Of a DNA stretch of 64,000 nt, positions 27,285 to 60,963 are shown piece by piece. A model generated the notes under the pieces. That model made no database searches, was not told where the DNA came from, and saw only the letters and a list, made by a program, of their open reading frames with translations. Position 1 is the stretch's first letter. Each line of letters starts with the position of its first letter. The DNA is from Eledone cirrhosa (lineage: Eukaryota): positions 396,676,001 through 396,740,000 of the forward strand of contig OZ024741.1 of NCBI GenBank assembly GCA_964016885.1, given 5' to 3'. Made by a program: the position numbers and the translations under genes.

Positions 27285-28303
27285 GAACAACTACTACCAG
27301 CACAACCACCACAACAACAACAATAATCTTCACCTCAACAACTTTCACCACACAACAACTAACTACCACTACTCACCCCCACCACCTCAGCAACCTTCAC
27401 CACCACCACTACCACCACAACCTTCACCACCACCACAACCACCACCACTACAACCACCACCACAACCTTCACCACCACCACTACTACCACCACCACAACA
27501 ACCATCTCAACCGCCACCACAACCACCTTCACCACCACTACCACCACCACTACTACCACCACAACAACCATCACAACCACCACCACAAACTTCACCACCA
27601 CCACCACCACAAACACCACAACCACCACCACCACAACAACAACCATCAACACAACAACCATCACAACCACAACCACCACAACCTTCACCTCCACCACCAC
27701 CACCACAAACACCACCACAACAACCATCACAACCACCACTACAACCTTCACCACCACCACCACCACCACAACCACCACCACCACCAGAACCACCACAACC
27801 ACCACCACCACAACCACCACAACCACCATCACAACCACCACCACAACCTTCACCACCACCACAACCACCACAACCACCACCACAACAACCATCACAACCA
27901 CCACCACAACCACCACAACCACCACCACCACCACCATCACAACTACCACAACCACCATCACAACTACCACCACAACCTTCACCACCACCACCACAACCAC
28001 CATCACAACCACCACCACAACAACCATCACAACAACCTTCCACACCACCGCAACCACCACCACAACAACCACAACCACCATCAAAACCACCACCACAACA
28101 ACCATCACAATCACCACCACAACAACGTTCACCACCACCACCTCAATCACCACCTCAACAACCATCACAACCACCACCACAACCACCACAACAACCTTCA
28201 CCACCACCACAACCACCACCACAACCACCACCACAACCACCCCATAACAACCATCACAACCACCACCACCACCACCACCACAACCTTCACCACCACCACC
28301 ACT

Positions 28304-28337
<34 letters not shown>

Positions 28338-31300
28338 CCATCACAACCACCACCACAACCTTCACCACAACCACCACCACCACAACCACTACCACCACCA
28401 CAACAACAACCATCACAACCACCACCACAGCCACTACAACAACCTTCCGCACCACCACCACCACAACAACCACCGCAACCACCACCACAACCACCACAAC
28501 AACCTTCCACACCACCGCGACCAAAACAACCATCACAACCACCATCACAACCACCACAACAAGCTTCACCACCACCACAACCACCACCACAACCACCCCA
28601 TAACAACCATCACAACCACCACCACCACCACCACCACCACAACCTTCACCACCACCACCACCACCACCACCACCACAACAACAACAACAACAACCATCAC
28701 AACCACCACCACAACCTTCACCACAACCACCACCACCGCAACCACCACCACAACCACCATCACCACAACCACCACCACAACAACCATCACAACGACCACA
28801 ACAACCTTCACCACCACCACCACCACCACCACCACCACAACAACAACAAAAACCATCACAACCACCACCACAACCTTCACCACAACCACCACCACCACAA
28901 CCACCACCACAACCACCACAACAACCTTCACCACCACCATCACCACAACCACCACCACAACAACCATCACAACGACCACAACAACCTTCACCACCACCAC
29001 CACCACCACCACCACCACCACAACAACAACCATCACAACCACATCCACAACCTTCACCACCACCACCACCACCACAACAACCATCACAACCACCACCACC
29101 ACAAACTTCACCACCACCACTACCACCACCACCACCACAACAACAACCATCACAACCACCACCACACACCCATCAAAACCACTACCACAACTACCACCAC
29201 AACCACCACAACCACCACCACAACAACCATCACAACCACCACCACAACTGCCACCACCACCACCACAACCACCACCACAACCACCACCACAACCACCACC
29301 ACAACAACCATCACAACCACCACCACAACCACCACAACAACCTTCACCACCACCATTATCACCACCACCACCACAACCACCACCACAACCACCACCATAA
29401 CAACCATCACAACCACCACCACAACCTTCACCACCACCACAACCACCACCACAACAACCATCAGAACCACCACCACAACCTTCACCACCACCACCACCAC
29501 AACCACCATCACAACCACTACAACAACCTTCACCACAACCACCACCACAACCACCACCTCAACTACCATCACAACCACCACCACAACCTTCACCACCACC
29601 ACCACTACCACAACCACCATCACAACCACCACAACAACCTTCACCACAACCACCACAACAACCTTCACCACAACCTTCACCACCACCACCACCACCACAA
29701 CCACCATCACAACCACCACAACAACCTTCACCACAACCACCACCACAACCACCACCACAACCTTCACCACCACCACCACCACAACCACCACCTCAACTAC
29801 CATCACAACCACCACCACAACCTTCACCACCACCACCACCACCACAACCACCATCACAACCACCACAACAACCTTCACCACAACCACCACCACAACCACC
29901 ATCACAACCACCACACAACCTTCACCACCACCACCACCACCACAACCACCATCACAACCACCACAACAACCTTCACCACAACCACCACCACAACCACCAC
30001 CTCAACTACCATCACAACCACCACCACAACCTTCACCACCACCACCACCACAACCACCATCACAACCACCACAACAACCTTCACCACCACCACCACCACA
30101 ACCAGCACCTCAACTACCATCACAACCACCACCACAACCTTCACCACCACCACCACCACCACAACCACCATCACAACCACCACAACAACCTTCACCACCA
30201 CCACCACCACAACCACCACCTCAACTACCATCACAACCACCACCACAACCTTCACCACCACCACCACCACCACCACCACAACCACTACCACCACAACAAC
30301 CTTCACCACAACCACCACCACAACCACCACCTCAACAACCATCACAACCACCACACAACCTTCACCACCACCACCACCACCACAACCACCATCACAACCA
30401 CCACAACAACCTTCACCACAACCACCACCACAACCACCACCACAACCTTCACCACCACCACCACCACAACCACCACACAACCTTCACCACCACCACCACC
30501 ACCACCACAACCACCATCACAACCACCACAACAACCTTCACCACAACCACCACCACAACCACCACCACAACCTTCACCACCACCACCACCACCACAACCA
30601 CCACCACAACCTTCACCACCACCACCACCACCACAACCACCATCACAACCACCACAACAACCTTCACCACAACCACCACCACAACCACCACCTCAACAAC
30701 TATCACAACCACCACCACAACCTTCACCACCATCACCACCACCACAAACTTCACCACCACCACAATAACCATCACAACCACCACCACAGCCACCACAACA
30801 ACCGTCCACACCAGCGCAACCACCACCACAACAACCATCACAACCACCACCACAACAACAACCTTCACCACCACCACTACCACCACTACCACCACTACAA
30901 CCACAACCATCACCACAACAACCATCACAACCACCACCACAACCACCACACCAAACTTCACCACCACTACCACCATCACCACCACTACTACCACCATCAC
31001 CACTACTACAACCATCACCACCACTCCCACCATCAGAACACCAACAACAACAAACTACAACAACGTTTACCATCACCACCACCACTACCCCCACAACAAC
31101 CTTCACCACCACCACTACCCCACAACACCCATCCCCACCACTACCCCCACAACACCCATCACCACCACAACACCACCACCACTACCACAACAACCATCAC
31201 CACCAACCCCCACAATAACCTTCACCACCATAACCACCACCACAACACCCATCACCACCACAACACCACCAACCCCCACAACAACCATCATCATCACCAC

Positions 31301-31627
31301 CACCACCACAACACCACCATAACAACCACAAAAACCTTCACCATCATAACCACAACAACCATCACCACCATCACCACCACCACTACCACAACAACCACAA
31401 CAACCTTCACCAGCATAACCACCACCACCACCACCACCACCACCAATCACCACAACCACCATCACTACCACAACCCCCACAACAACCATCACCACCACCA
31501 CCACCACCAATCCCCACCACCACCATCACTACCACAACCCCCACAACAACCATCACCACCACCACCACCACCACCACCACTACCACAATACCACCACCAA
31601 CAACACCAACAACCACAACAAACTACA
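27285..31627. repeat. 4.3-kb imperfect (ACC/ACA)n trinucleotide tract
   Basis: Almost pure A/C on + with recurring ACCTTCACC and ACCATCACA sub-motifs; the triplet register shifts several times. Confidence 0.95.
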
Positions 31628-32378: not shown

Positions 32379-32382
32379 AAAA

Positions 32383-32480
32383 AGTATGACCCCGACGGCA
32401 GAGCTTAAGCCGTTTCGACGGCTATTTCTGGACTGAAATAGCTGTCGAAACGGCTTGAGCTCTGCCGTCGGGGTCATACT
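32383..32480. repeat. 98-bp near-perfect palindrome (46-bp arms, 6-nt loop)
   Basis: 32383-32428 is the reverse complement of 32435-32480 with 2 mismatches; loop TGGACT. Confidence 0.95.
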
Positions 32481-32593
32481 CGTTTCTATTACCAACTCTA
32501 CTACCCTAAGTATTGAGTACTCTGGCGCGTTATGGTCCATCTGGTTCCTTACCACAACTCCTTCGTTATATATATATATATATATATATATAT

Positions 32594-41746: not shown

Positions 41747-42107
41747 CTGCAATGAAGAATAATATGCATATAAACCTCCACACACGCTTTCTCCTCTGCT
41801 TTTATTAGACTATCTAGGATGTAGGTATACCTCACAGATAATGGAAACAGCACCTCGAAAGTTTCTCTTAGTGACAAGCGTTCACTCAAGCTAAGAGCAA
41901 ATTTTCGTTCCTGATGCCAATGATATTGTTTAAGAGAGAGAGAGAGGTGATGGTCGATAGAATTTGGCACTAGTGTCATTACAGACGAAGTCAGAACACA
42001 TAAGACTGACAGAGATGTTCCTAGTTACCCTATCTGATTCTCTATTCCACTAACTTATCACCTTGGATGGGATCATTATTTATTGACGCACAAATTATGA
42101 AAAGCGG

Positions 42108-45100
42108 AGTGGATGTCGGTGATATTAGAACAGAGTGGATGTCGGTGATATTAGAACAGAGTGGATGTTGGTGATATTAGAACAGAGTGGATGTCGGTGA
42201 TATTAGAATAGAGTGGATGTTGGTGATATTAGAATAGAGTGGATGTTGGTGATATTAGAATAGAGTGGATGTCGGTGATATTAGAATAGAGTGGATGTCG
42301 GTGATATTAGAATAGAGTGGATGTTGGTGATATTAGAATAGAGTGGATGTTGGTGATATTAGAATAGAGTGGATGTCGGTGATATTAGAACAGAGTGGAT
42401 GTTGGTGATATTAGAATAGAGTGGATGTCGGTGATATTAGAACAGAGTGGATGTTGGTGATATTAGAATAGAGTGGATGTTGGTGATATTAGAACAGAGT
42501 GGATGTTGGTGATATTAGAACAGAGTGGATGTCGGTGATATTAGAATAGAGTGGATGTTGGTGATATTAGAATAGAGTGGATGTTGGTGATATTAGAACA
42601 GAGTGGATGTTGGTGATATTAGAACAGAGTGGATGTTGGTGATATTAGAATAGAGTGGATGTTGGTGATATTAGAATAGAGTGGATGTTGGTGATATTAG
42701 AACAGAGTGGATGTTGGTGATATTAGAATAGAGTGGATGTTGGTGATATTAGAATAGAGTGGATGTTGGTGATATTAGAACAGAGTGGATGTTGGTGATA
42801 TTAGAATAGAGTGGATGTCGGTGATATTAGAATAGAGTGGATGTCGGTGATATTAGAACAGAGTGGATGTTGGTGATATTAGAATAGAGTGGATGTCGGT
42901 GATATTAGAATAGAGTGGATGTCGGTGATATTAGAATAGAGTGCATGTTGGTGATATTAGAATAGAGTGGATGTTGGTGATATTAGAGTAGTGTGGATGT
43001 TGGTGATATTAGAATAGAGTGGATGTCGGTGATATTAGAACAGAGTGGATGTTGGTGATATTAGAACAGTGTGGATGTTGGTGATATTAGAATTGAGTGG
43101 ATGTTGGTGATATTAGAATAGAGTGGATGTCGGTGATATTAGAATAGAGTGGATGTTGGTGATATTAGAACAGAGTGGATGTTGGTGGTATTAGAATAGA
43201 GTGGATGTTGGTGATATTAGAATAGAGTGGATGTTGGTGATATTAGAATAGAGTGGATGTTGGTGGTATTAGAACAGAGCGGATGTTGGTGATATTAGAA
43301 TAGAGTGGATGTTGGTGGTATCAGAACAGAGTGGATGTTGGTGATATTAGAACAGACTGGATGTTGGTGATATTAGAACAGAGTGGATGTTGGTGATATT
43401 AGAACAGAGTGGATGTCGGTGATATTAGAATAGAGTGGATGTTGGTGATATTAAAATAGTGTGGATGTTGGTGATATTAGAATAGAGTGGATGTTGGTGA
43501 TATTAGAACAGAGTGGATGTTGGTGATATTAGAATAGAGTGGATGTTGGTGATATTAGAATTGAGTGGATGTTGGTGATATTAGAATAGAGTGGATGTCG
43601 GTGATATTAGAATAGAGTGGATGTTGGTGATATTAGAACAGAGTGGATGTTGGTGGTATTAGAATAGAGTGGATGTTGGTGATATTAGAATAGAGTGGAT
43701 GTTGGTGATATTAGAATAGAGTGGATGTTGGTGGTATTAGAACAGAGCGGATGTTGGTGATATTAGAATAGAGTGGATGTTGGTGGTATCAGAACAGAGT
43801 GGATGTTGGTGATATTAGAACAGACTGGATGTTGGTGATATTAGAACAGAGTGGATGTTGGTGATATTAGAACAGAGTGGATGTCGGTGATATTAGAATA
43901 GAGTGGATGTTGGTGATATTAAAATAGTGTGGATGATTGTTTATATGCTTCAGCATGTACCCATGGGAGGTCGGGTACCCTGTATTACTGCGTGACGCCA
44001 GAAGTCACGGTCGTGTGTCATTGACTTTGAGAGGTGTAGTTGGGTAAGGTCGGCTTTTATCACCTCATCCCAAGTCATCTTGGGTCTCCCCACTCCGCGG
44101 TTTCCATCAACTTCTAGTGCTCTGCACCTTTTTATGCAGCTGTCATCCTTCATACGCATCACATGTCCATACCAGCGTAACCGCCTCTCCTGCACGCAGC
44201 ATTTGATTCCTCTTATGCTCAGTCTCTCTCTCAATTCATTTATGCTTTGTCGTTCACGTATATTACTGTTACACATCCATCGGAGCATGCAGGCTTCGTT
44301 TCTCTCTAATCTACGTAAGTCTTCCACCTTCAGCGCCCAGGTCTCACTACCATGCAACATCGCTGTTCGGATACACGCATCATACAGTCTGCCTTTCATT
44401 CTGAGGGAGAAGCCTTTTGCAGCTAGCAGTGGTAGTAGTTCCCTAAACTTCTTCCATCCCGTTCTTACCCTAGTTATTGTACTTTCTGAGCACCCACCTC
44501 CGTTGCTAATTCGGTCACCTAGGTAGCAGAAGCTGTCTACTGTTTCTACAGGGCCCTCCCAGAGATTGGTGGTACTTGTTTCCTGTGGCTGTTTGCTTGC
44601 TGTTTCAGCACAGCTGCTGCATGTGAATCCTACATTCTTAATTAAGCTTCCTGAGATCCCGCTACATCTCTTGTGTACCCATTGTTTGCATTTGGGGCAA
44701 AGAATGGAGTTCCTACCTACACCTTTCCTACATACTGAGCAAGGCCATTTCCCTGAGGGGATCTGGGTTCTGTTTTCTCGTCTACTTATAAGGACCTTAG
44801 TCTTTGTCATGTTGACTTTGAGGCCCTTTCTCTCTAGTCCCTGCTTCCAGGTTTGGAATCCAGGATGTCGGTGATATTAGAATAGAGTGGATGTTGGTGA
44901 TATTAGAATAGAGTGGATGTTGGTGATATTAGAATAGAGTGGATGTTGGTGATATTAGAATAGAGTGGATGTCGGTGATATTAGATTAGAGTGGACGTTG
45001 GTGATATTAGAACAGAGAGGACGTTGCTGATATTAGAATAGAGTGGATGTTGGTGATATTAGAATAGAGTGGATGTTGGTGATATTAGAACAGAGTGGAT

Positions 45101-48100
45101 GTTGGTGATATTAGAATAGAGTGGATGTTGGTGATATTAGAATAGAGTGGATGTTGGTGATATTAGAACAGAGAGGATGTTGGTGATATTAGAACAGAGT
45201 GGATGTTGGTGATATTAGAATAGAGTGGATGTTGGTGATATTAGAACAGAGAGGATGTTGGTGATATTAGAACAGAGTGGATGTTGGTGATATTAGAATA
45301 GAGTGGATGTTGGTGATATTAGAACAGAGTGGATGTTGGTGATATTAGAATAGAGAGGATGTCGGTGATATTAGAACAGAGTGGATGTTGGTGATATTAG
45401 AACAGAGTGGATGTCGGTGATATTAGAACAGAGTGGATGTTGGTGATATTAGAATAGAGTGGATGTTGGTGATATTAGAATAGAGTGGATGTCGGTGATA
45501 TTAGAATAGAGAGGGTGTTGGTGATATTAGAACAGTGTGGATGTTGGTGATATTAGAATAGAGTGGATGTTGGTGATAGTAGAATAGAGTGGATGTCGGT
45601 GATATTAGAACAGAGTGGATGTTGGTGATATTAGAATAGAGTGGATGTTGGTGATATTAGAATAGAGAGGATGTTGGTGATATTAGAACAGTGTGGATGT
45701 TGGTGATATTATAACAGAGTGGATGTTGGTGATATTAGAATAGAGTGGATGTTGGTGATATTAGAATAGAGTGGATGTTGGTGATATTAGAATAGAGAGG
45801 ATGTTGGTGATATTAGAACAGTGTGGATGTTGGTGATATTAGAATAGAGTGGATGTTGGTGATATTAGAATAGAGAGGATGTTGGTGATATTAGAACAGT
45901 GTGGATGTTGGTGATATTAGAACAGTGTGGATGTTGGTGATATTAGAATAGAGTGGATGTTGGTGATATTAGAATAGAGAGGATGTTGGTGATATTAGAA
46001 CAGTGTGGATGTTGGTGATATTAGAACAGAGTGGATGTTGGTGATATTAGAATAGAGTGGATGTTGGTGATATTAGAATAGAGTGGATGTTGGTGATATT
46101 AGAATAGAGAGGATGTTGGTGATATTAGAACAGAGTGGATGTCGGTGATATTAGAACAGAGTGGATGTTGGTGATATTAGAATAGAGTGCATGTTGGTGA
46201 TATTAGAATAGAGTGGATGTTGGTGATATTAGAACAGAGTGGATGTTGGTGATATTAGAACAGAGTGGATGTCGGTGATATTAGAACAGAGTGGATGTTG
46301 GTGATATCAGAACAGAGTGGATGTTGGTGATATTAGAACAGACTGGATGTTGGTGATATTAGAACAGAGTGGATGTTGGTGATATTAGAACAGAGTGGAT
46401 GTCGGTGATATTAGAATAGAGTGGATGTTGGTGATATTAGAACAGAGTGGACGTTGGTGATATTAGAATAGAGTGGATGTCGGTGATATTAGAACAGTGT
46501 GGATGTTGGTGATATTAGAACAGAGTGGATGTTGGTGATATTAGAATAGAGTGGATGTTGGTGATATTAGAATAGAGTGGATGTTGGTGATATTAGAATA
46601 GAGTGGATGTTGGTGATATTAGAATAGAGTGGATGTTGGTGATATTAGAACAGAGAAGATGTCGGTGATATTAGAATAGAGTGGATGTTGGTGATATTAG
46701 AATAGAGTGGATGTTGGTGATATTAGAATAGAGTGGATGTTGGTGATATTAGAATAGAGTGGATGTCGGTGATATTAGAATAGAGTGGACGTTGGTGATA
46801 TTAGAACAGAGAGGACGTTGGTGATATTAGAATAGAGTGGATGTTGGTGATATTAGAATAGAGTGGATGTTGGTGATATTAGAACAGAGTGGATGTTGGT
46901 GATATTAGAATAGAGTGGATGTTGGTGATATTAGAATAGAGTGGATGTTGGTGATATTAGAACAGAGAGGATGTTGGTGATATTAGAACAGAGTGGATGT
47001 TGGTGATATTAGAATAGAGTGGATGTTGGTGATATTAGAACAGAGAGGATGTTGGTGATATTAGAACAGTGTGGATGTTGGTGATATTATAACAGAGTGG
47101 ATGTTGGTGATATTAGAATAGAGTGGATGTTGATGATATTAGAATAGAGTGGATGTTGGTGATATTAGAATAGAGAGGATGTTGGTGATATTAGAACAGT
47201 GTGGATGTTGGTGATATTAGAATAGAGTGGATGTTGGTGATATTAGAATAGAGTGGATGTTGGTGATATTAGAATAGAGTAGATGTTGGTGATATTAGAA
47301 TAGAGAGGATGTTGGTGATATTAGAACAGTGTGGATGTTGGTGATATTAGAATAGAGTGGATGTTGGTGATATTAGAACAGAGTGGATGTTGGTGATATT
47401 AGAACAGAGTGGATGTTGGTGATATTAGAACAGAGTGGATGTTGGTGATATTAGAATAGAGTGCATGTTGGTGATATTAGAATAGAGTGGATGTTGGTGA
47501 TATTAGAACAGAGTGGATGTTGGTGATATTAGAACAGAGTGGATGTCGGTGATATTAGAACAGAGTGGATGTTGGTGATATTAGAACAGAGTGGATGTTG
47601 GTGATATTAGAATAGAGTGGATGTTGGTGATATTAGAATAGAGTGGATGTTGGTGATATTAGAACAGAGTGGATGTTGGTGATATTAGAATAGAGTGGAT
47701 GTTGGTGATATTAGAATAGAGAGGATGTTGGTGATATTAGAACAGTGTGGATGTTGGTGATATTATAACAGAGTGGATGTTGGTGATATTAGAATAGAGT
47801 GGATGTTGGTGATATTAGAATAGAGTGGATGTTGGTGATATTAGAATAGAGAGGATGTTGGTGATATTAGAACAGTGTGGATGTTGGTGATATTAGAATA
47901 GAGTGGATGTTGGTGATATTAGAATAGAGAGGATGTTGGTGATATTAGAACAGTGTGGATGTTGGTGATATTAGAACAGTGTGGATGTTGGTGATATTAG
48001 AATAGAGTGGATGTTGGTGATATTAGAATAGAGAGGATGTTGGTGATATTAGAACAGTGTGGATGTTGGTGATATTAGAACAGAGTGGATGTTGGTGATA

Positions 48101-50395
48101 TTAGAATAGAGTGGATGTTGGTGATATTAGAATAGAGTGGATGTTGGTGATATTAGAATAGAGAGGATGTTGGTGATATTAGAACAGAGTGGATGTCGGT
48201 GATATTAGAACAGAGTGGATGTTGGTGATATTAGAATAGAGTGCATGTTGGTGATATTAGAATAGAGTGGATGTTGGTGATATTAGAACAGAGTGGATGT
48301 TGGTGATATTAGAACAGAGTGGATGTCGGTGATATTAGAACAGAGTGGATGTTGGTGATATCAGAACAGAGTGGATGTTGGTGATATTAGAACAGACTGG
48401 ATGTTGGTGATATTAGAACAGAGTGGATGTTGGTGATATTAGAACAGAGTGGATGTCGGTGATATTAGAATAGAGTGGATGTTGGTGATATTAGAACAGA
48501 GTGGACGTTGGTGATATTAGAATAGAGTGGATGTCGGTGATATTAGAACAGTGTGGATGTTGGTGATATTAGAACAGAGTGGATGTTGGTGATATTAGAA
48601 TAGAGTGGATGTTGGTGATATTAGAATAGAGTGGATGTTGGTGATATTAGAATAGAGTGGATGTTGGTGATATTAGAATAGAGTGGATGTTGGTGATATT
48701 AGAACAGAGAAGATGTCGGTGATATTAGAATAGAGTGGATGTTGGTGATATTAGAATAGAGTGGATGTTAGTGATATTAGAATAGAGTGGATGTTGGTGA
48801 TATTAGAATAGAGTGGATGTCGGTGATATTAGAATAGAGTGGACGTTGGTGATATTAGAACAGAGAGGACGTTGGTGATATTAGAATAGAGTGGATGTTG
48901 GTGATATTAGAATAGAGTGGATGTTGGTGATATTAGAACAGAGTGGATGTTGGTGATATTAGAATAGAGTGGATGTTGGTGATATTAGAATAGAGTGGAT
49001 GTTGGTGATATTAGAACAGAGAGGATGTTGGTGATATTAGAACAGAGTGGATGTTGGTGATATTAGAATAGAGTGGATGTTGGTGATATTAGAACAGAGA
49101 GGATGTTGGTGATATTAGAACAGTGTGGATGTTGGTGATATTATAACAGAGTGGATGTTGGTGATATTAGAATAGAGTGGATGTTGATGATATTAGAATA
49201 GAGTGGATGTTGGTGATATTAGAATAGAGAGGATGTTGGTGATATTAGAACAGTGTGGATGTTGGTGATATTAGAATAGAGTGGATGTTGGTGATATTAG
49301 AATAGAGTGGATGTTGGTGATATTAGAATAGAGTAGATGTTGGTGATATTAGAATAGAGAGGATGTTGGTGATATTAGAACAGTGTGGATGTTGGTGATA
49401 TTAGAATAGAGTGGATGTTGGTGATATTAGAACAGAGTGGATGTTGGTGATATTAGAACAGAGTGGATGTTGGTGATATTAGAACAGAGTGGATGTTGGT
49501 GATATTAGAATAGAGTGCATGTTGGTGATATTAGAATAGAGTGGATGTTGGTGATATTAGAACAGAGTGGATGTTGGTGATATTAGAACAGAGTGGATGT
49601 CGGTGATATTAGAACAGAGTGGATGTTGGTGATATTAGAACAGAGTGGATGTTGGTGATATTAGAATAGAGTGGATGTTGGTGATATTAGAATAGAGTGG
49701 ATGTTGGTGATATTAGAACAGAGTGGATGTTGGTGATATTAGAATAGAGTGGATGTTGGTGATATTAGAATAGAGTGGATGTTGGTGATATTTGAACAGA
49801 GTGGATGTTGGTGATATTAGAATAGAGTGGATGTTGGTGATATTAAAATAGTGTGGATGTTGGTGATATTAGAACAGAGTGGATGTTGGTGGTATTAGAA
49901 TAGAGTGGATGTTGGTGATATTAGAACAGAGTGGATGTTGGTGATATTAGAACAGAGTGGATGTTGGTGATATTAGAATAGAGTGGATGTTGGTGATATT
50001 AGAATAGAGTGGATGTTGGTGATATTAGAACAGAGTGGATGTTGGTGGTATTAGAATAGAGTGGATGTTGGTGATATTAGAACAGAGTGGATGTTGGTGA
50101 TATTAGAACAGAGTGGATGTTGGTGATATTAGAATAGAGTGGATGTTGGTGATATTAGAACAGAGTGGATGTTGGTGATATTAGAATAGAGTGGATGTTG
50201 GTGATATTAGAATAGAGTGGATGTTGGTGATATTAGAATAGAGTGGATGTTGGTGATATTAGAATAGAGTGGATGTTGGTGATATTAGAACAGAGTGGAC
50301 GTTGGTGATATTAGAATAGAGTGGATGTTGGTGCTATTAGAATAGAGTGGACGTTGGTGATATTAGAACAGAGAGGACGTTGGTGATATTAGAAC
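42108..50395. repeat. 26-bp satellite (about 280 copies), interrupted at 43936-44862
   Basis: Unit AGAGTGGATGT(T/C)GGTGATATTAGAA(T/C); higher-order duplications of 468 bp (18 units) and 2054 bp (79 units) read from rare variants. Confidence 0.98.
43936..44862 (-). mobile_element. 5'-truncated RTE LINE inserted in the 26-bp satellite
   Basis: Open frame of about 300 aa homologous to the C-terminus of the 32.8-36 kb RTE (FCYLGD, AMLHGSETW, RRLRWYGH, GRPKMTW); GGATG duplicated at 43931-43935 and 44863-44867. Confidence 0.95.
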
Positions 50396-50645: not shown

Positions 50646-51021
50646 CATAGTGTTAAGGTTAAGGGCACAGCTCACTCGGGACTATGAAGCAGGCGATGGT
50701 GTGGTACATAGTGTTAAGGTTAAGTAGAGGGCCCCTTGCGGAGTGTAAACTAGACTCTAGTGTGGTACATGTTGTTTTTGTTAAGAAGGCAGCATCTTAG
50801 GGACTGTGTACCAGATCATAGCATGGTAGATATTGTTATGGTAAAGAAGAAGGCACCTTATGTAGTGTGAACTAGACCATAGCGTGGTACATAATGTTAC
50901 AGTTAAGAAGAGGGCATTTTCAGGAGTGTGAAACAGGCCATCGTGTGAAACATAGTGTTAAGGTTAAGAAGAGGGCCCTTAGATAATGTGAACTAGGCCA
51001 TCGTGTGATACAAAGTGTTAA
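50646..51021. repeat. Old divergent 61-bp tandem repeat (6+ copies; resumes at 52910)
   Basis: CATAGTGTTAAGGTTAAG-like starts at 50646, 50707, 50768, 50829, 50890, 50951, 51011. Confidence 0.85.
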
Positions 51022-52909
51022 TAATAATAATAATGAAATTATTGTGTACAGTTCTCAGGTGCACTACAACTCATCAATGGTGCATGTATAGTACATAGAA
51101 TAATATACAAATGTCAGGGAAATTAATAGTGTATGAGTCATCATATACATGTGTGCATGTGTATGGAGGAGGGATATTAGGTCTAGTGTTGGCGAATCTC
51201 AGGAAGCATGGAGGTTTTAAAGGATGCAGAGTCTCAACAGCTAACAACTGATGCAGGTAGTTTGTTCCATGAAGGTTTTAAAGGATGCAGAGTCTCAACA
51301 GCTAACAACTGATGCAGGTAGTTTGTTCCATGGAGGTTTTAAAGGATGCAGAGTCTCAACAGCTAACAACTGATGCAGGTAGTTTGTTCCATGGAGGTTT
51401 TAAAGGATGCAGTGTCTTGACAGCTAATAACTGATGCGGGTAGTTTGTTCCATGGAGGTTTTAAAGGATGCAGTGTCACAACAACTAACAACTGATGCAG
51501 GTAGTTTGTTCCATGGAGGTTTTAAAGGATGCAGAGTCTCAACAGCTAACAACTGATGCAGGTAGTTTGTTCCATGGAGGTTTTAAAGGATGCAGTGTCA
51601 CGACAACTAACAACTGATGCAGGTAGTTTGTTCCATGGAGGTTTTAAAGGATGCAGTGTCTCAACAGCTAACAACTGATGCAGGTAGTTTGTTCCATGGA
51701 GGTTTCAAAGGATGCAGTGTCACGACAACTAACAACTGATGCAGGTAGTTTGTTCCATGGAGGTTTTAAAGGATGCAGAGTCTCAACAGCTAACAACTGA
51801 TGCAGGTAGTTTGTTCCATGGAGGTTTTAAAGGATGCAGTGTCACGACAACTAACAACTGATGCAGGTAGTTTGTTCCATGGAGGTTTTAAAGGATGTAG
51901 TGTCTCAACAGCTAACTACTGATGCAGGTAGTTTGTTCCATGGAGGTTTTAAAGGATGCAGTGTCACGACAACTAACAACTGATGCAGGTAGTTTGTTCC
52001 ATGGAGGTTTTAAAGGATGCAGTGTCTTGACAGCTAACAACTGATGCAGGTAGTTTGTTCCATGGAGGTTTTAAAGGGTGCAGTGTCTCGACAGCTAACA
52101 ACTGATGCAGGTAGTTTGTTCCATGGAGGTTTTAAAGGATGCAGTGTCTCGACAGCTAACAACTGATGTAGGTAGTTTGTTCCATGGAGGTTTTAAAGGA
52201 TGCAGTGTCTCGACAGCTAACAACTGATGCAGGTAGTTTGTTCCATGGAGGTTTTAAAGGATGCAGTGTCTCGACAGCTAACAACTGATGCAGGTAGTTT
52301 GTTCCATGGAGGTTTTAAAGGATGCAGTGTCTCGACAGCTAACAACTGATGCAGGTAGTTTGTTCCATGGAGGTTTTAAAGGATGCAGTGCCTCGACAGC
52401 TAACAACTGATGCAGGTAGTTTGTTCCATGGAGGTTTTAAAGGATGCAGAGTCACGACAGCTAATAACTGATGCAGATAGTTTGTTCCATGGAGGTTTTA
52501 AAGGATGCAGAGTCACAACAGCTAACAACTGATGCAGGTAGTTTGTTCCATGGAGGTTTTAAAGGATGCAGTGTCTCAACAGCTAACAACTGATGCAGGT
52601 AGTTTGTTCCATGGAGGTTTTAAAGGATGCAGAGTTACGACAGCTAACAACTGATGCAGGTAGTTTGTTCCATGGAGGTTTTAAAGGATGCAGAGTCACA
52701 ACAGCTAACAACTGATGCAGGTAGTTTGTTCCATGGAGGTTTTAAAGGATGCAGAGTCACGACAGCTAACAACTGATGCAGGTAGTTTGTTCCATGCTTC
52801 AGCAACTCTGAGCGTGAAAAAATGAAAGTCATGGGACTGTGCTGTTTTCTTACTTTGTTGGCATGCCCACGTGTGTTAGACACATGGAAATCAAAAAGGT
52901 ACTCAGGGT
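51022..52909 (-). mobile_element. 5'-truncated CR1-like LINE 3' end containing an internal tandem expansion
   Basis: Minus strand encodes FDFHVSNTRGHANKVRKQH...FFTLRVAEAWNKLPASVVSC...SFK (TRGH / FF..R....WN.LP...V motif of CR1-group ORF2 ends), then a 3' UTR and (TTA)n tail; TGTTAA duplicated at 51016-51021 and 52910-52915. Confidence 0.85.
51207..52796. repeat. 26 x 61-bp minisatellite derived from the LINE ORF2 C-terminus
   Basis: Unit CATGGAGGTTTTAAAGGATGCAG(A/T)GTC...GGTAGTTTGTTC; (52793-51207)/61 = 26. Confidence 0.97.
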
Positions 52910-57812: not shown

Positions 57813-57870
57813 CAAAAATGTTTTGAACAGTTCTTTGATTCTTATATTTCATATATATACATATATATAC

Positions 57871-58045
<175 letters not shown>

Positions 58046-58046
58046 C

Positions 58047-58113
<67 letters not shown>

Positions 58114-58174
58114 CATATATATATATATACATATATATATATACATATATATATATATACATATATATATATAC

Positions 58175-58370
<196 letters not shown>

Positions 58371-58391
58371 GTATATACATATATATATATG

Positions 58392-58432
<41 letters not shown>

Positions 58433-58498
58433 ACATATCCATATATATATATATATATATCTACATATCCATATATATATATATATATATCTACATAT

Positions 58499-58585
<87 letters not shown>

Positions 58586-58586
58586 C

Positions 58587-58665
<79 letters not shown>

Positions 58666-58673
58666 TATATATA

Positions 58674-59398
58674 TAAGTTAAAAATGTACATCCACATATG
58701 TATACTGAAATACTAGTATGCATATGAATACACACACGTGTACATATGTAGATGTACCGAGTTTTTCACTGGACACTTTACTGTGAGTGTTCAGCTAGTC
58801 TGTATGTAAACACACAGACAAACCGGTTTTTAGAGTCATACTGGTTTTCGAGGAAACACCTTTCCTCTATTCTCCAGAAAGCCAGACAGGAATATTGGAC
58901 TAGTTTCGATGTTGTTACATCTCATCAGCAATATTTACCTATCCTCCGGCCTTTCTAGAGAATCGTAAAAGCACATATCGTTATATGCTTTTTCTATGAA
59001 AATTAGTAGTGGGCAGACTAATTTGCATAGAGCGTGAGTACGTACCGGTTCAGCGGAGACGATAAAAACAAATAACGAAACGAAATTAAACCTCGTTTCG
59101 TTTGTAACTCACTTTTGTATGACTGACGCTTAAACAATTAAGTTAAAAATGTACATCCACATATCCAAAAACCGGTTTGTCTGTGTGTTTACATACAGAC
59201 TAGCTGAACACTCACAGTAAAGTGTCCAGTGAAAAACTCGGTACATCTACATATGTACACGTGTATGTATTCATATGCATACTAGTATTTCAGTATACAT
59301 ATGTGGATGTACATTTTTAACTTAATTGTTTAAGCGTCAGTCATACAAAAGTGAGTTACAAACGAAACGAGGTTTAATTTCGTTTCGTTATTTGTTTT
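58674..59398 (-). mobile_element. Non-autonomous pLTR/retrozyme-like element with terminal redundancy and inverted 5' segment
   Basis: 465-bp unit with 26 bp repeated (58674 and 59139); inverted repeats 58674-58831 / 59167-59324 and 59065-59164 / 59299-59398; internal hammerhead; (TA)n flanks. Confidence 0.8.
58891..58935 (-). ncRNA. Minimal type I hammerhead ribozyme (45 nt)
   Basis: Minus strand: AATATTG-CTGATGA-GATGT AACA ACATC-GAAA-CTAG-TC-CAATATT; intact core, 7-bp stem I, 5-bp stem II, palindromic ACTAGT stem III, GUC site. Confidence 0.9.
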
Positions 59399-59431
59399 CA
59401 TATATATATATATATACATACATATATATAC

Positions 59432-59540
<109 letters not shown>

Positions 59541-59541
59541 C

Positions 59542-59590
<49 letters not shown>

Positions 59591-59591
59591 C

Positions 59592-59667
<76 letters not shown>

Positions 59668-59708
59668 ATATACATATATATATAAACATATACATATATA
59701 TCTACATA

Positions 59709-59891
<183 letters not shown>

Positions 59892-59918
59892 ATCTACATA
59901 TACATATATATATATATC

Positions 59919-59964
<46 letters not shown>

Positions 59965-59980
59965 CATATATACATAAATA

Positions 59981-60012
<32 letters not shown>

Positions 60013-60021
60013 CATATATAC

Positions 60022-60069
<48 letters not shown>

Positions 60070-60108
60070 CTACATATATATATATATCTACATATATATA
60101 TATATATC

Positions 60109-60190
<82 letters not shown>

Positions 60191-60244
60191 CATATATATA
60201 TATACATATACATATATATATATCTACATATATATATATATATC

Positions 60245-60324
<80 letters not shown>

Positions 60325-60345
60325 CATATATATATATACATATAC

Positions 60346-60550
<205 letters not shown>

Positions 60551-60573
60551 CATATATATACATATATATATAT

Positions 60574-60963
60574 AAAATATTAAAAAAATAATGAATAAAA
60601 CAATGAAACAGTTCCTTATATTAAACAAAAAAAGTTCATTATTTAACGATCGTTTCTAGGATATATATGTGTTAGAATTGGCATGCATATTCAACAGATC
60701 TATGTACAAAATTATACAAAATTATACAAACTATCAAAATTAAATATACATACCAAACACATATATATGCCGTCTTCAGAAATAATGAAATATATTTATT
60801 GATAATAACAACAATTCAAAATTTCAGGTCCGTTTGGGAACAGAGTTCAAATTGACCAATGAAAATACAAAAAATTTTATGCAGTTAGGTGTGTGTATAT
60901 ACATGTAATTAACTTCGTACACATATTTACACACTACCGTAAACTCTTGGTAGATTTAACTAC
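60574..60963 (-). mobile_element. pLTR-like element homologous to 56500-56770, copy 1
   Basis: Shares ATTGGTCAATT...CTGTTCCCAAAC.GACCT, the hammerhead and AATATAAGGAAC with the + strand element. Confidence 0.8.
60635..60789 (-). ncRNA. Type I hammerhead ribozyme with long stem II (copy 1 of tandem pair)
   Basis: Minus strand: TTCATTATTT-CTGAAGA-(116 nt)-GAAA-CGATCG-TT-AAATAATGAA. Confidence 0.75.

What the first reader, a model, noticed from the sequence alone, without database searches (positions are those of the whole stretch)
58674..59398. Minimal 45-nt hammerhead in a circularly permuted 465-bp unit capped by an inverted copy
Seen: layout Y-Z-X-Y' followed by reverse-complement(X-Y), giving a 26-bp terminal redundancy and overlapping inverted repeats of 158 bp (1 mismatch) and 100 bp. 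The X-Y junction occurs twice, implying a circular or tandem template. Established: a pLTR plus short tail with an inverted 5' segment is typical of PLE integration. Inference: a recent insertion of a non-coding element by PLE machinery.
Basis: partly seen in the sequence, partly recalled or inferred. Interest (0 to 1): 0.8.

Follow-up and report, generated by a model that had tools for sequence, protein, structure and literature searches.

The report
Two-armed retrozyme copied from edited RNA
This is one young copy of a roughly 7,800-copy non-coding repeat that carries a self-cutting-RNA motif, and the ends and RNA-editing-like marks of its copies suggest that a Penelope-type jumping-gene enzyme likely wrote it into DNA from both sides of a break by running round one small RNA circle.

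Summary
The layout is confirmed to the base: 465-bp unit, 26-bp redundancy, inverted repeats of 158 bp (one mismatch) and 100 bp, and a 45-nt type I hammerhead. It is one copy of a non-LTR retrozyme family (at least 7,800 hammerheads) inserted in (TA)n. The permutation is not random. Outer ends fall at two sites about 70 nt apart, and two-ended insertions have one of each (67 of 68; 12 of 12). A young autonomous Penelope-like element in this genome shows the same pattern (7 of 7). Both arms share rare variants; locus-fixed changes are enriched for A>G on the ribozyme strand (36 vs 13); arms cross the cut site without scars. Best reading: two target-primed reverse transcriptions on one edited, probably circular RNA. 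Expression, cleavage, circles and the partner enzyme are untested. The element class is known; this genomic evidence was not found in the papers searched. The scan reported the same pattern earlier on other DNA of this genome.

The parts
58664..58675 (+). Left copy of a 12-bp flanking direct repeat (candidate target-site duplication; last 2 nt overlap the element)
   Evidence: weak alone, 12-mer common in the array; family-level duplications
58674..59164 (+). Tail-less arm ('B' arm): 1.06 units starting at initiation site B; + strand is the inferred cDNA strand
58674..59138 (-). One full 465-nt retrozyme unit, ribozyme-sense on the minus strand; folds at z = -9.99 against shuffles; no ORF above 68 aa wholly inside the insert
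58891..58935 (-). Type I hammerhead, 45 nt; predicted cut after C at 58898; helix I extends to about 58884-58946
   Evidence: helix I and II covary across three related families
58834..58841 (-). 3' strand of a long-range helix that pairs with 59117-59124; kept through compensatory changes in related families
   Evidence: helix 1
59021..59028 (-). Octamer motif, kept in 8 of 9 aligned units of three families about 61% alike; possible internal promoter element (untested)
59062..59138 (-). 'Tail' between initiation sites A (about 59062) and B (about 59131-59141), with a 13-bp hairpin at 59074-59102
59091..59092 (-). Two adjacent A>G changes (ribozyme sense) in the tail hairpin; editing-like; 32 genomic matches against 7,145 for the common form
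59139..59164 (+). 26-bp terminal redundancy (Y'): the arm runs past one full unit
59165..59166 (.). Two extra bases at the inner junction of the arms
59167..59398 (-). Tail-bearing arm ('A' arm): 0.5 unit, outer end at site A; carries the same rare doublet at 59371-59372
59399..59410 (+). Right copy of the 12-bp flanking direct repeat
57851..60575 (.). Host (TA)n/TACA microsatellite array that holds the insertion

Best explanation
This is one young insertion of a non-coding hammerhead repeat (a non-LTR retrozyme) that was likely written into a (TA)n microsatellite by a Penelope-like retrotransposon protein acting in trans, with both nicked DNA ends likely priming reverse transcription on the same, probably circular, RNA. 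Shown: two head-to-head arms whose outer ends lie at two fixed sites flanking a 70-nt tail, one site per arm; variable inner junction; shared variants across arms. Inferred steps: (1) tandem arrays are transcribed on the ribozyme strand; (2) dimeric hammerheads cut the transcript to monomers that are ligated to circles, as shown for other animal retrozymes; (3) the structured RNA is sometimes A-to-I edited; (4) a PLE protein dimer binds the tail, nicks both strands of (TA)n about 8-13 nt apart, and each 3' end starts cDNA, one at site A and one at site B; (5) each RT runs round the template for a fraction of a turn to many turns; (6) the two cDNAs are joined by short microhomology and the gaps filled, giving the target duplication.
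For: End rule: 67 of 68 insertions with both ends typed have one A and one B end (after three corrections by eye; p 2e-19), plus 12 of 12 in a further set (read by eye). A young RT/GIY-YIG family with open frames of 775 aa in many copies shows a 63-nt tail on exactly one arm in 7 of 7 two-armed copies with both ends seen. PLE tail = sequence between two RT start sites, both strands nicked and extended, dimer predicted (PMC11167929). (TA)3 within 14 nt of 51 and 52 of 55 left and right ends; interrupted target words duplicated in 9 of 23 testable loci, shuffled mean 0.39, max 4; 28 of 51 inner junctions overlap by 1-4 nt. One template: divergence 0.657% within an arm, 0.668% between arms, 1.1-5.9% between loci; 46 rare variants fixed in both arms against 7 in one multi-unit arm. 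RNA, ribozyme sense: locus-fixed A>G 36 vs U>C 13, p 0.0008, unit-private 35 vs 33; 31 vs 13, p 0.006, without the two sites I selected on. The window's doublet recurs on four haplotype backgrounds and is in both arms. Circle: whole arrays with no difference among units but distinct from the nearest locus (L074, L181, L186, L191: 4-17 full units); inner ends uniform (chi-square p 0.50), 5 of 110 near the cut site against 5.0 expected; 2 indel starts in at least 415 crossings of positions 221-228, none at the cut; rank-matched units of opposite arms no closer than unmatched ones (26 loci, p 0.88).
Against: No RNA, cleavage or circle was observed. The partner PLE was not identified: the one autonomous family examined shares no significant sequence with the tail, ribozyme or octamer regions and showed no hammerhead. 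In vitro the PLE used uncut RNA and did not need the ribozyme (PMC11167929), which allows a linear multimer. About 6,113 of 7,819 counted hammerheads have GUU, not GUC, at the cut, so cleavage may be slow in most copies. L185 has several haplotypes in one array, and L189 has variants shared by 5-6 of 30 units: some arrays had mixed templates or grew after insertion; L076 is an array of more than 28 kb with 2.6% internal divergence. One insertion is B/B (L108) and 21 of 89 have at most one typed end. The opposite arm was the strictly nearest sequence in only 17 of 60 loci (16 ties, 27 not). A first, cruder cut gave A>G 19 vs U>C 12. Five of the nine doublet loci share one background and may be one lineage. 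The sample is not random and under-represents the GUU majority (19 of 107 loci).
Confidence: 0.7

Rival explanations
1. Same PLE-driven two-ended priming, but the template is an uncut linear multimeric transcript of a homogeneous parent array, not a circle.
For: Uncut RNA was the main substrate in vitro (PMC11167929); most hammerheads carry GUU; perfectly homogeneous arrays exist that could be parents; no end pile-up or scar at the cut site is also expected here; L185 is mixed.
Against: New locus-specific changes are fixed in every unit of both arms (for example three A>G changes in all units of L191/L192, absent from sisters L194 and L200 of the same background), which needs a one-unit bottleneck; rank-matched units are not closer than unmatched ones.
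Confidence: 0.17
2. The template is cut linear monomers and the RT jumps from end to end to build arrays.
Against: No excess of inner ends at the cut (5 of 110, 5.0 expected); no indels at the cut in at least 415 crossings; units within young arrays are identical.
Confidence: 0.05
3. The inversion comes from fold-back or self-priming (as proposed in PMC3846280, on an antisense template), or from a later local inversion.
For: The unit is rich in hairpins; three inner junctions overlap by 13-42 nt.
Against: A fold-back copy cannot be longer than its template arm or hold sequence outside it: the tail-less arm is the longer in 32 of 55 loci and the other arm holds the tail; both arms exceed one unit in 23 of 55; the A>G bias points to the ribozyme-sense strand as template.
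Confidence: 0.04
4. A MITE-like DNA transposon with terminal inverted repeats, or a satellite spread by DNA recombination.
For: Inverted ends and TA context at this locus; some very long arrays grew locally.
Against: The two outer ends differ (A vs B), size and inner junction vary freely, duplications are longer than 2 nt, and strand-biased A>G needs an RNA step.
Confidence: 0.02
5. Assembly or library artefact (palindromic chimera in a TA-rich array).
For: This junction is not bridged in the listed contigs or reads.
Against: Dozens of loci with different junctions obey one end rule and have target duplications; two raw-read DNA runs of another study show an opposite-strand joint of a sister copy in 5 and 6 reads.
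Confidence: 0.02

Closest known systems
Metazoan non-LTR retrozymes (Cervera and de la Pena 2020, PMC7229834: abstract, passages, sections 14 and 17 read; Li, Clavereau and Pollet 2026, 10.64898/2026.07.22.740005: parts 1-3 of 5 read)
   Same: Non-coding tandem units of a few hundred bases, one type I hammerhead each, AT-rich, target duplications longer than 4 bp, co-occurring with PLEs; one-pair helix III with palindromic tetraloop as in axolotl HHR_Amex1.
   Different: 465 nt is above the 150-450 range of the 2020 paper though inside the 51-972 range of the 2026 preprint. Neither text as read describes two-armed insertions, two fixed ends or editing marks in genomic copies ('inverted' 0 times in the 2020 main text). 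They propose PLE mobilisation and circular templates; the 2020 paper shows circles in RNA, which I could not.
EN+ Penelope-like elements: pLTR, tail and inverted 5' copy (PMC8557442 passages; PMC3846280 passages)
   Same: Head-to-head inverted arrangement, tail at one end only, (TA)n bias, 8-10 bp duplications, partial tandems.
   Different: No RT or endonuclease ORF; tail about 70 nt rather than 30-40; both arms can be multi-unit arrays; no sequence link to an autonomous family was found.
Poseidon element PAc in vitro (Frangieh et al. 2024, PMC11167929, parts 1-2 of 4 read)
   Same: Two internal RT start sites that bound the tail; AT-rich target; both strands cut and extended.
   Different: That work saw no difference in start site between strands and did not address pairing within one insertion or circular templates; here the two ends of one insertion take different sites in 79 of 80 cases.
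PLE min-HHR (Cervera and de la Pena 2014, PMC4209133 passages)
   Same: Type I topology, weak palindromic helix III, expected to work as a dimer.
   Different: Helix I is 7 bp with an extension and helix II 5 bp with no extra base before it: the canonical metazoan form, not the minimal variant.
LINE-1 twin priming (recalled, from no call)
   Same: Inversion made by second-strand priming during target-primed reverse transcription.
   Different: There the second primer lands at a variable internal site and the pieces do not overlap; here both starts are fixed and the arms overlap in template.

Membership tests
Non-LTR retrozyme | Type I hammerhead in each unit | tested here: met
   Core and three helices present; helices I and II covary across three families; below Rfam gathering score
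Non-LTR retrozyme | Short units in tandem, many dispersed copies | tested here: met
   Period 463-470; 1,633 + 73 + 6,113 exact hammerhead matches
Non-LTR retrozyme | Non-coding, no LTR | tested here: met
   Longest ATG ORF wholly inside the insert 68 aa; no long direct terminal repeats; PBS and PPT not searched
Non-LTR retrozyme | Target-site duplication longer than 4 bp | tested here: met
   9 of 23 testable loci, shuffled mean 0.39; a looser test was not significant (16 vs 8.9, max 19); weak at this locus
Non-LTR retrozyme | Expressed as linear and circular RNA; self-cleaves | not testable with these tools
   No RNA data were available to lay; only indirect genomic signs
Non-autonomous PLE-mobilised element | Two alternative 3' ends bounding a tail; tail on one end of inverted insertions | tested here: met
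   67 of 68 and 12 of 12; same pattern in an autonomous family, 7 of 7
Non-autonomous PLE-mobilised element | Microsatellite or AT-rich target | tested here: met
   51 and 52 of 55 ends
Non-autonomous PLE-mobilised element | Sequence homology to the pLTR of an autonomous PLE | tested here: inconclusive
   None in the fetched flanks or in the one autonomous family examined; other families not searched in full
Autonomous PLE | ORF with RT and GIY-YIG | tested here: not met
PLE min-HHR variant | Short helix I (4-5 bp), long helix II (7-8 bp), extra base before helix II | tested here: not met
   7-bp helix I, 5-bp helix II, no extra base
MITE / TIR DNA transposon | Matching terminal inverted repeats and fixed length | tested here: not met
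   Ends differ (A vs B); arm lengths 67-7,294 bp
Newt satellite 2-type self-promoted repeat (recalled; named in note e1-8804837) | Internal snRNA-type promoter (octamer plus proximal element) | tested here: inconclusive
   Octamer conserved in 8 of 9 units; no octamer in 320 nt upstream of 3 U2 genes and best match to their -80..-35 region reached by 6, 15 and 183 of 200 shuffles

The most novel reading that the evidence does not exclude
Genomic copies of this family record a Penelope integration intermediate: one protein dimer on one edited RNA circle, its two reverse transcriptases starting on either side of the tail hairpin from the two strands of one staggered cut and both rolling round the same molecule. 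That would explain at once the PLE inverted structure, the one-sided tail and retrozyme tandem arrays, and would mean RNA edits are written into the germ line and amplified.
Probability: 0.5. Interest if true: 0.78.

Novelty: new member of a known kind. Interest (0 to 1): 0.57.

Why it matters
How Penelope-like elements make their inverted, one-tailed insertions is called undefined in PMC8557442, and copying of retrozyme circles by a PLE enzyme is proposed, not shown, in PMC7229834 and the 2026 preprint. This family gives thousands of near-identical natural products with a strict end rule and editing-like marks, so both questions become testable by a census and by one in vitro reaction. As an element it is an ordinary member of a known class.

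Tried and rejected
Expression: no RNA holder listed; no evidence either way. The laying of contigs of related organisms gave no result, so conservation in other species is open; the small word shares are not used. Partner PLE: weak-similarity searches of fetched flanks, inspection of other pLTR hammerheads and tails, a search for stem-II variants of the hammerhead (which returned subfamily copies; L105 gave no hit to the unit and was dropped) and one autonomous family found no sequence link; the 5.8-kb gap in L080 holds two separate insertions and a LINE-like RT frame, not a PLE. A recalled Pfam accession was not in the library. Promoter: U2 upstream comparison inconclusive. Loose duplication test not significant. 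Nearest-neighbour test of arms weak. Rfam microRNA hits are hairpin and TA noise below gathering score. Earlier-findings look-up by sequence returned nothing. Rows dropped before the end count: duplicates (L003, L013, L015, L019, L025, L109, L115), short loci replaced by longer fetches, L105, and the L076/L146/L147 array whose ends were not reached; L076 was also left out of the variant spectra. Literature searches that returned no description of two-armed retrozymes, the paired-end rule or editing marks in retrozyme copies: (listings only, except the papers named); PMC13282606 has 0 occurrences of retrozyme, hammerhead or ribozyme. Supplements were not seen (Figure S9 of PMC7229834; the preprint's tables are closed) and may bear on novelty; subscription papers are not in the library.

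Full report
1. Observation. The insert sits in a (TA)n/TACA array. A 45-nt type I hammerhead lies on the minus strand at 58891-58935 (Rfam HH9 34.2 bits, below gathering score 52), with a one-pair helix III and a palindromic loop. The unit folds far better than shuffles (z -9.99) and has no ORF above 68 aa wholly inside the insert.

2. Family. The window lies in a 3.0-Gb genome; earlier AI notes call it octopus-type, which I did not test. A DNA search gave 894 candidates, 40 scored, at 98-100% identity and in tandem with a 465-bp period. Exact patterns count 1,633 hammerheads of the window's form, 73 with a changed helix II and GUC, and 6,113 with GUU; the tail hairpin has 7,145 matches. Two related families about 61% alike turned up in flanks. 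Across nine units, helices I and II, the tail hairpin and a long-range helix are kept: 96.5% of cells paired, 24 cells with changes on both sides, 32-43% paired when slid; the structure was derived from these sequences and they form three clades, so this is support, not a probability. An octamer is kept in 8 of 9; a comparison with three U2 upstream regions was inconclusive.

3. Ends. I mapped 89 insertions from three non-random sets: best matches to the window, the first 100 exact hammerhead matches along contig C1, and the helix II variant. Outer ends fall at site A (unit position about 389) or site B (about 457-465/1-12), both on the 3' side of the ribozyme-sense RNA. The script typed 35 A/B, 29 B/A, one ambiguous, one B/B; reading L014, L069 and L132 by eye gives 67 of 68 with one end of each kind, and 21 with at most one typed end. 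Several apparently single-armed copies have a partner arm of only 8-18 nt of the other kind. Eighteen further insertions gave 12 of 12. Ends abut (TA)n in 51 and 52 of 55; where the target is interrupted, a duplication is seen in 9 of 23 against 0.39 in shuffles. Inner junctions vary; 28 of 51 overlap by 1-4 nt, 5 are blunt, 15 have extra bases, 3 overlap more. As a control, a young RT/GIY-YIG element with many 775-aa open frames has a 63-nt tail on one arm only in 7 of 7 two-armed copies (four of these I chose for having opposite-strand hits). Its sequence does not match the retrozyme, so it shows the signature, not the partnership. A tail at one end of inverted insertions is a known PLE trait (PMC8557442; PMC3846280), and the tail is the span between two RT start sites in vitro (PMC11167929).

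4. One template, RNA, ribozyme sense. Units differ by 0.657% within an arm, 0.668% between arms and 1.1-5.9% between loci; 46 rare variants are fixed in both arms, 7 in one multi-unit arm only. Against this, the opposite arm was strictly nearest in only 17 of 60 loci. In the window both arms carry two adjacent changes in the tail hairpin that read A>G on the ribozyme strand; this form has 32 matches in 9 loci, on four backgrounds, five loci sharing one, and one unit of L187 has only one of the two. Among 106 loci, changes fixed in a locus and absent from its three nearest neighbours are A>G 36, U>C 13 (p 0.0008), while changes private to one unit are 35 and 33; without the two selected sites 31 and 13 (p 0.006). 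An earlier, cruder cut gave 19 and 12. I ran these tests after note e1-8803865 mentioned editing marks. That A>G in duplex RNA reflects A-to-I editing is established knowledge, applied here by inference.

5. Circle or multimer. Arms run up to 15 units and past the cut site in 46 and 54 of 55 loci. Inner ends are uniform round the unit and not enriched at the cut, and crossings of the cut carry no scars, which disfavours jumping between cut monomers. Arrays such as L074, L181, L186 and L191 have no differences among units yet differ from their nearest locus, and three A>G changes fill all units of L191/L192 but not its sisters: each needs a one-unit bottleneck, most simply one circle. Rank-matched units of the two arms are no closer than unmatched ones. 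Exceptions are L185 (mixed), L189 (partly shared variants) and L076 (over 28 kb), and a homogeneous uncut multimer is not excluded. Fold-back is excluded for most loci because the tail-less arm is the longer in 32 of 55.

6. Artefact. This junction is not bridged, but the family rule, the duplications and an opposite-strand joint of a sister copy in two raw-read runs of another study (5 and 6 reads) make an artefact unlikely.

7. Comparison and novelty. The element meets the sequence-level features of non-LTR retrozymes (PMC7229834; preprint 10.64898/2026.07.22.740005) and the end features of PLE-mobilised DNA; expression and cleavage could not be tested. Those papers propose PLE mobilisation and circular templates. 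Eight searches listed no paper on two-armed retrozyme insertions or editing marks in their copies; supplements and subscription papers were not seen. Earlier notes of this scan report the same pattern for this and other families in this genome; they are not independent support. Verdict: a real feature, a new member of a known kind, useful because it makes two open mechanistic questions testable. Interest 0.57.

Noticed in passing
G000: About 78% of counted hammerheads of this family have GUU at the cleavage triplet and related families have GUA; the GUU subfamilies are young and spreading, so fast cleavage may not be needed.
   Followed up: partly
L185:1574-8993: One two-armed array holds several unit haplotypes; the tail-bearing arm alternates two of them, as a dimeric template would give.
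   Followed up: partly
L076, L146, L147 (G000:C1 about 95.64-95.67 Mb): Array of the same unit longer than 28 kb, about 90% to the window, 2.6% internal divergence: a retrozyme turned satellite.
   Followed up: no
L090:1675-2277, L011:2901-3358, L094:821-1601, L072:9062-9564; L027:142-700, L070, L116:1956-3002: Two related retrozyme families about 61% alike, with homologous end sites, octamer and fold; L072 has one A and one B end.
   Followed up: partly
L221-L257: Very young autonomous PLE family (RT plus C-terminal GIY-YIG, open frames of 775 aa, copies 98-100% alike in protein), TA-targeted, two-armed, 63-nt tail on one arm, no hammerhead seen in the part examined.
   Followed up: partly
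L063, L071, L075, L082, L008, L012, L016, L024, L066, L070, L096 flanks: Several other pLTR hammerhead families with palindromic helix III and two alternative 3' ends; L082 has an inverted pair with the tail on one arm.
   Followed up: no
window 32381-32482: GC-richer hairpin (Rfam MIR7723 55 bits, far below its cut-off); similar hairpins recur beside (TA)n in L011, L015, L070, L077, L096: probably a TA-flanked MITE-like repeat.
   Followed up: no
window 1597-26651, 27365-31616, 42107-50394, 50679-52796: Large satellites: 33/50/83/133-bp composite with strong GC skew, (ACC)n, a 26-bp unit and a 61-bp unit.
   Followed up: no
L191:1110-5990 and L192: The three fixed A>G changes fall in and beside the conserved octamer and destroy it in all units.
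   Followed up: no
window 58687-58695 (minus strand): A 9-nt word just upstream of site B also lies about 55 nt upstream of two U2 genes; not significant after several comparisons.
   Followed up: partly
G000:C3 about 307.35-307.45 Mb: Tandem array of U2 snRNA genes with a period of about 2.2 kb.
   Followed up: no
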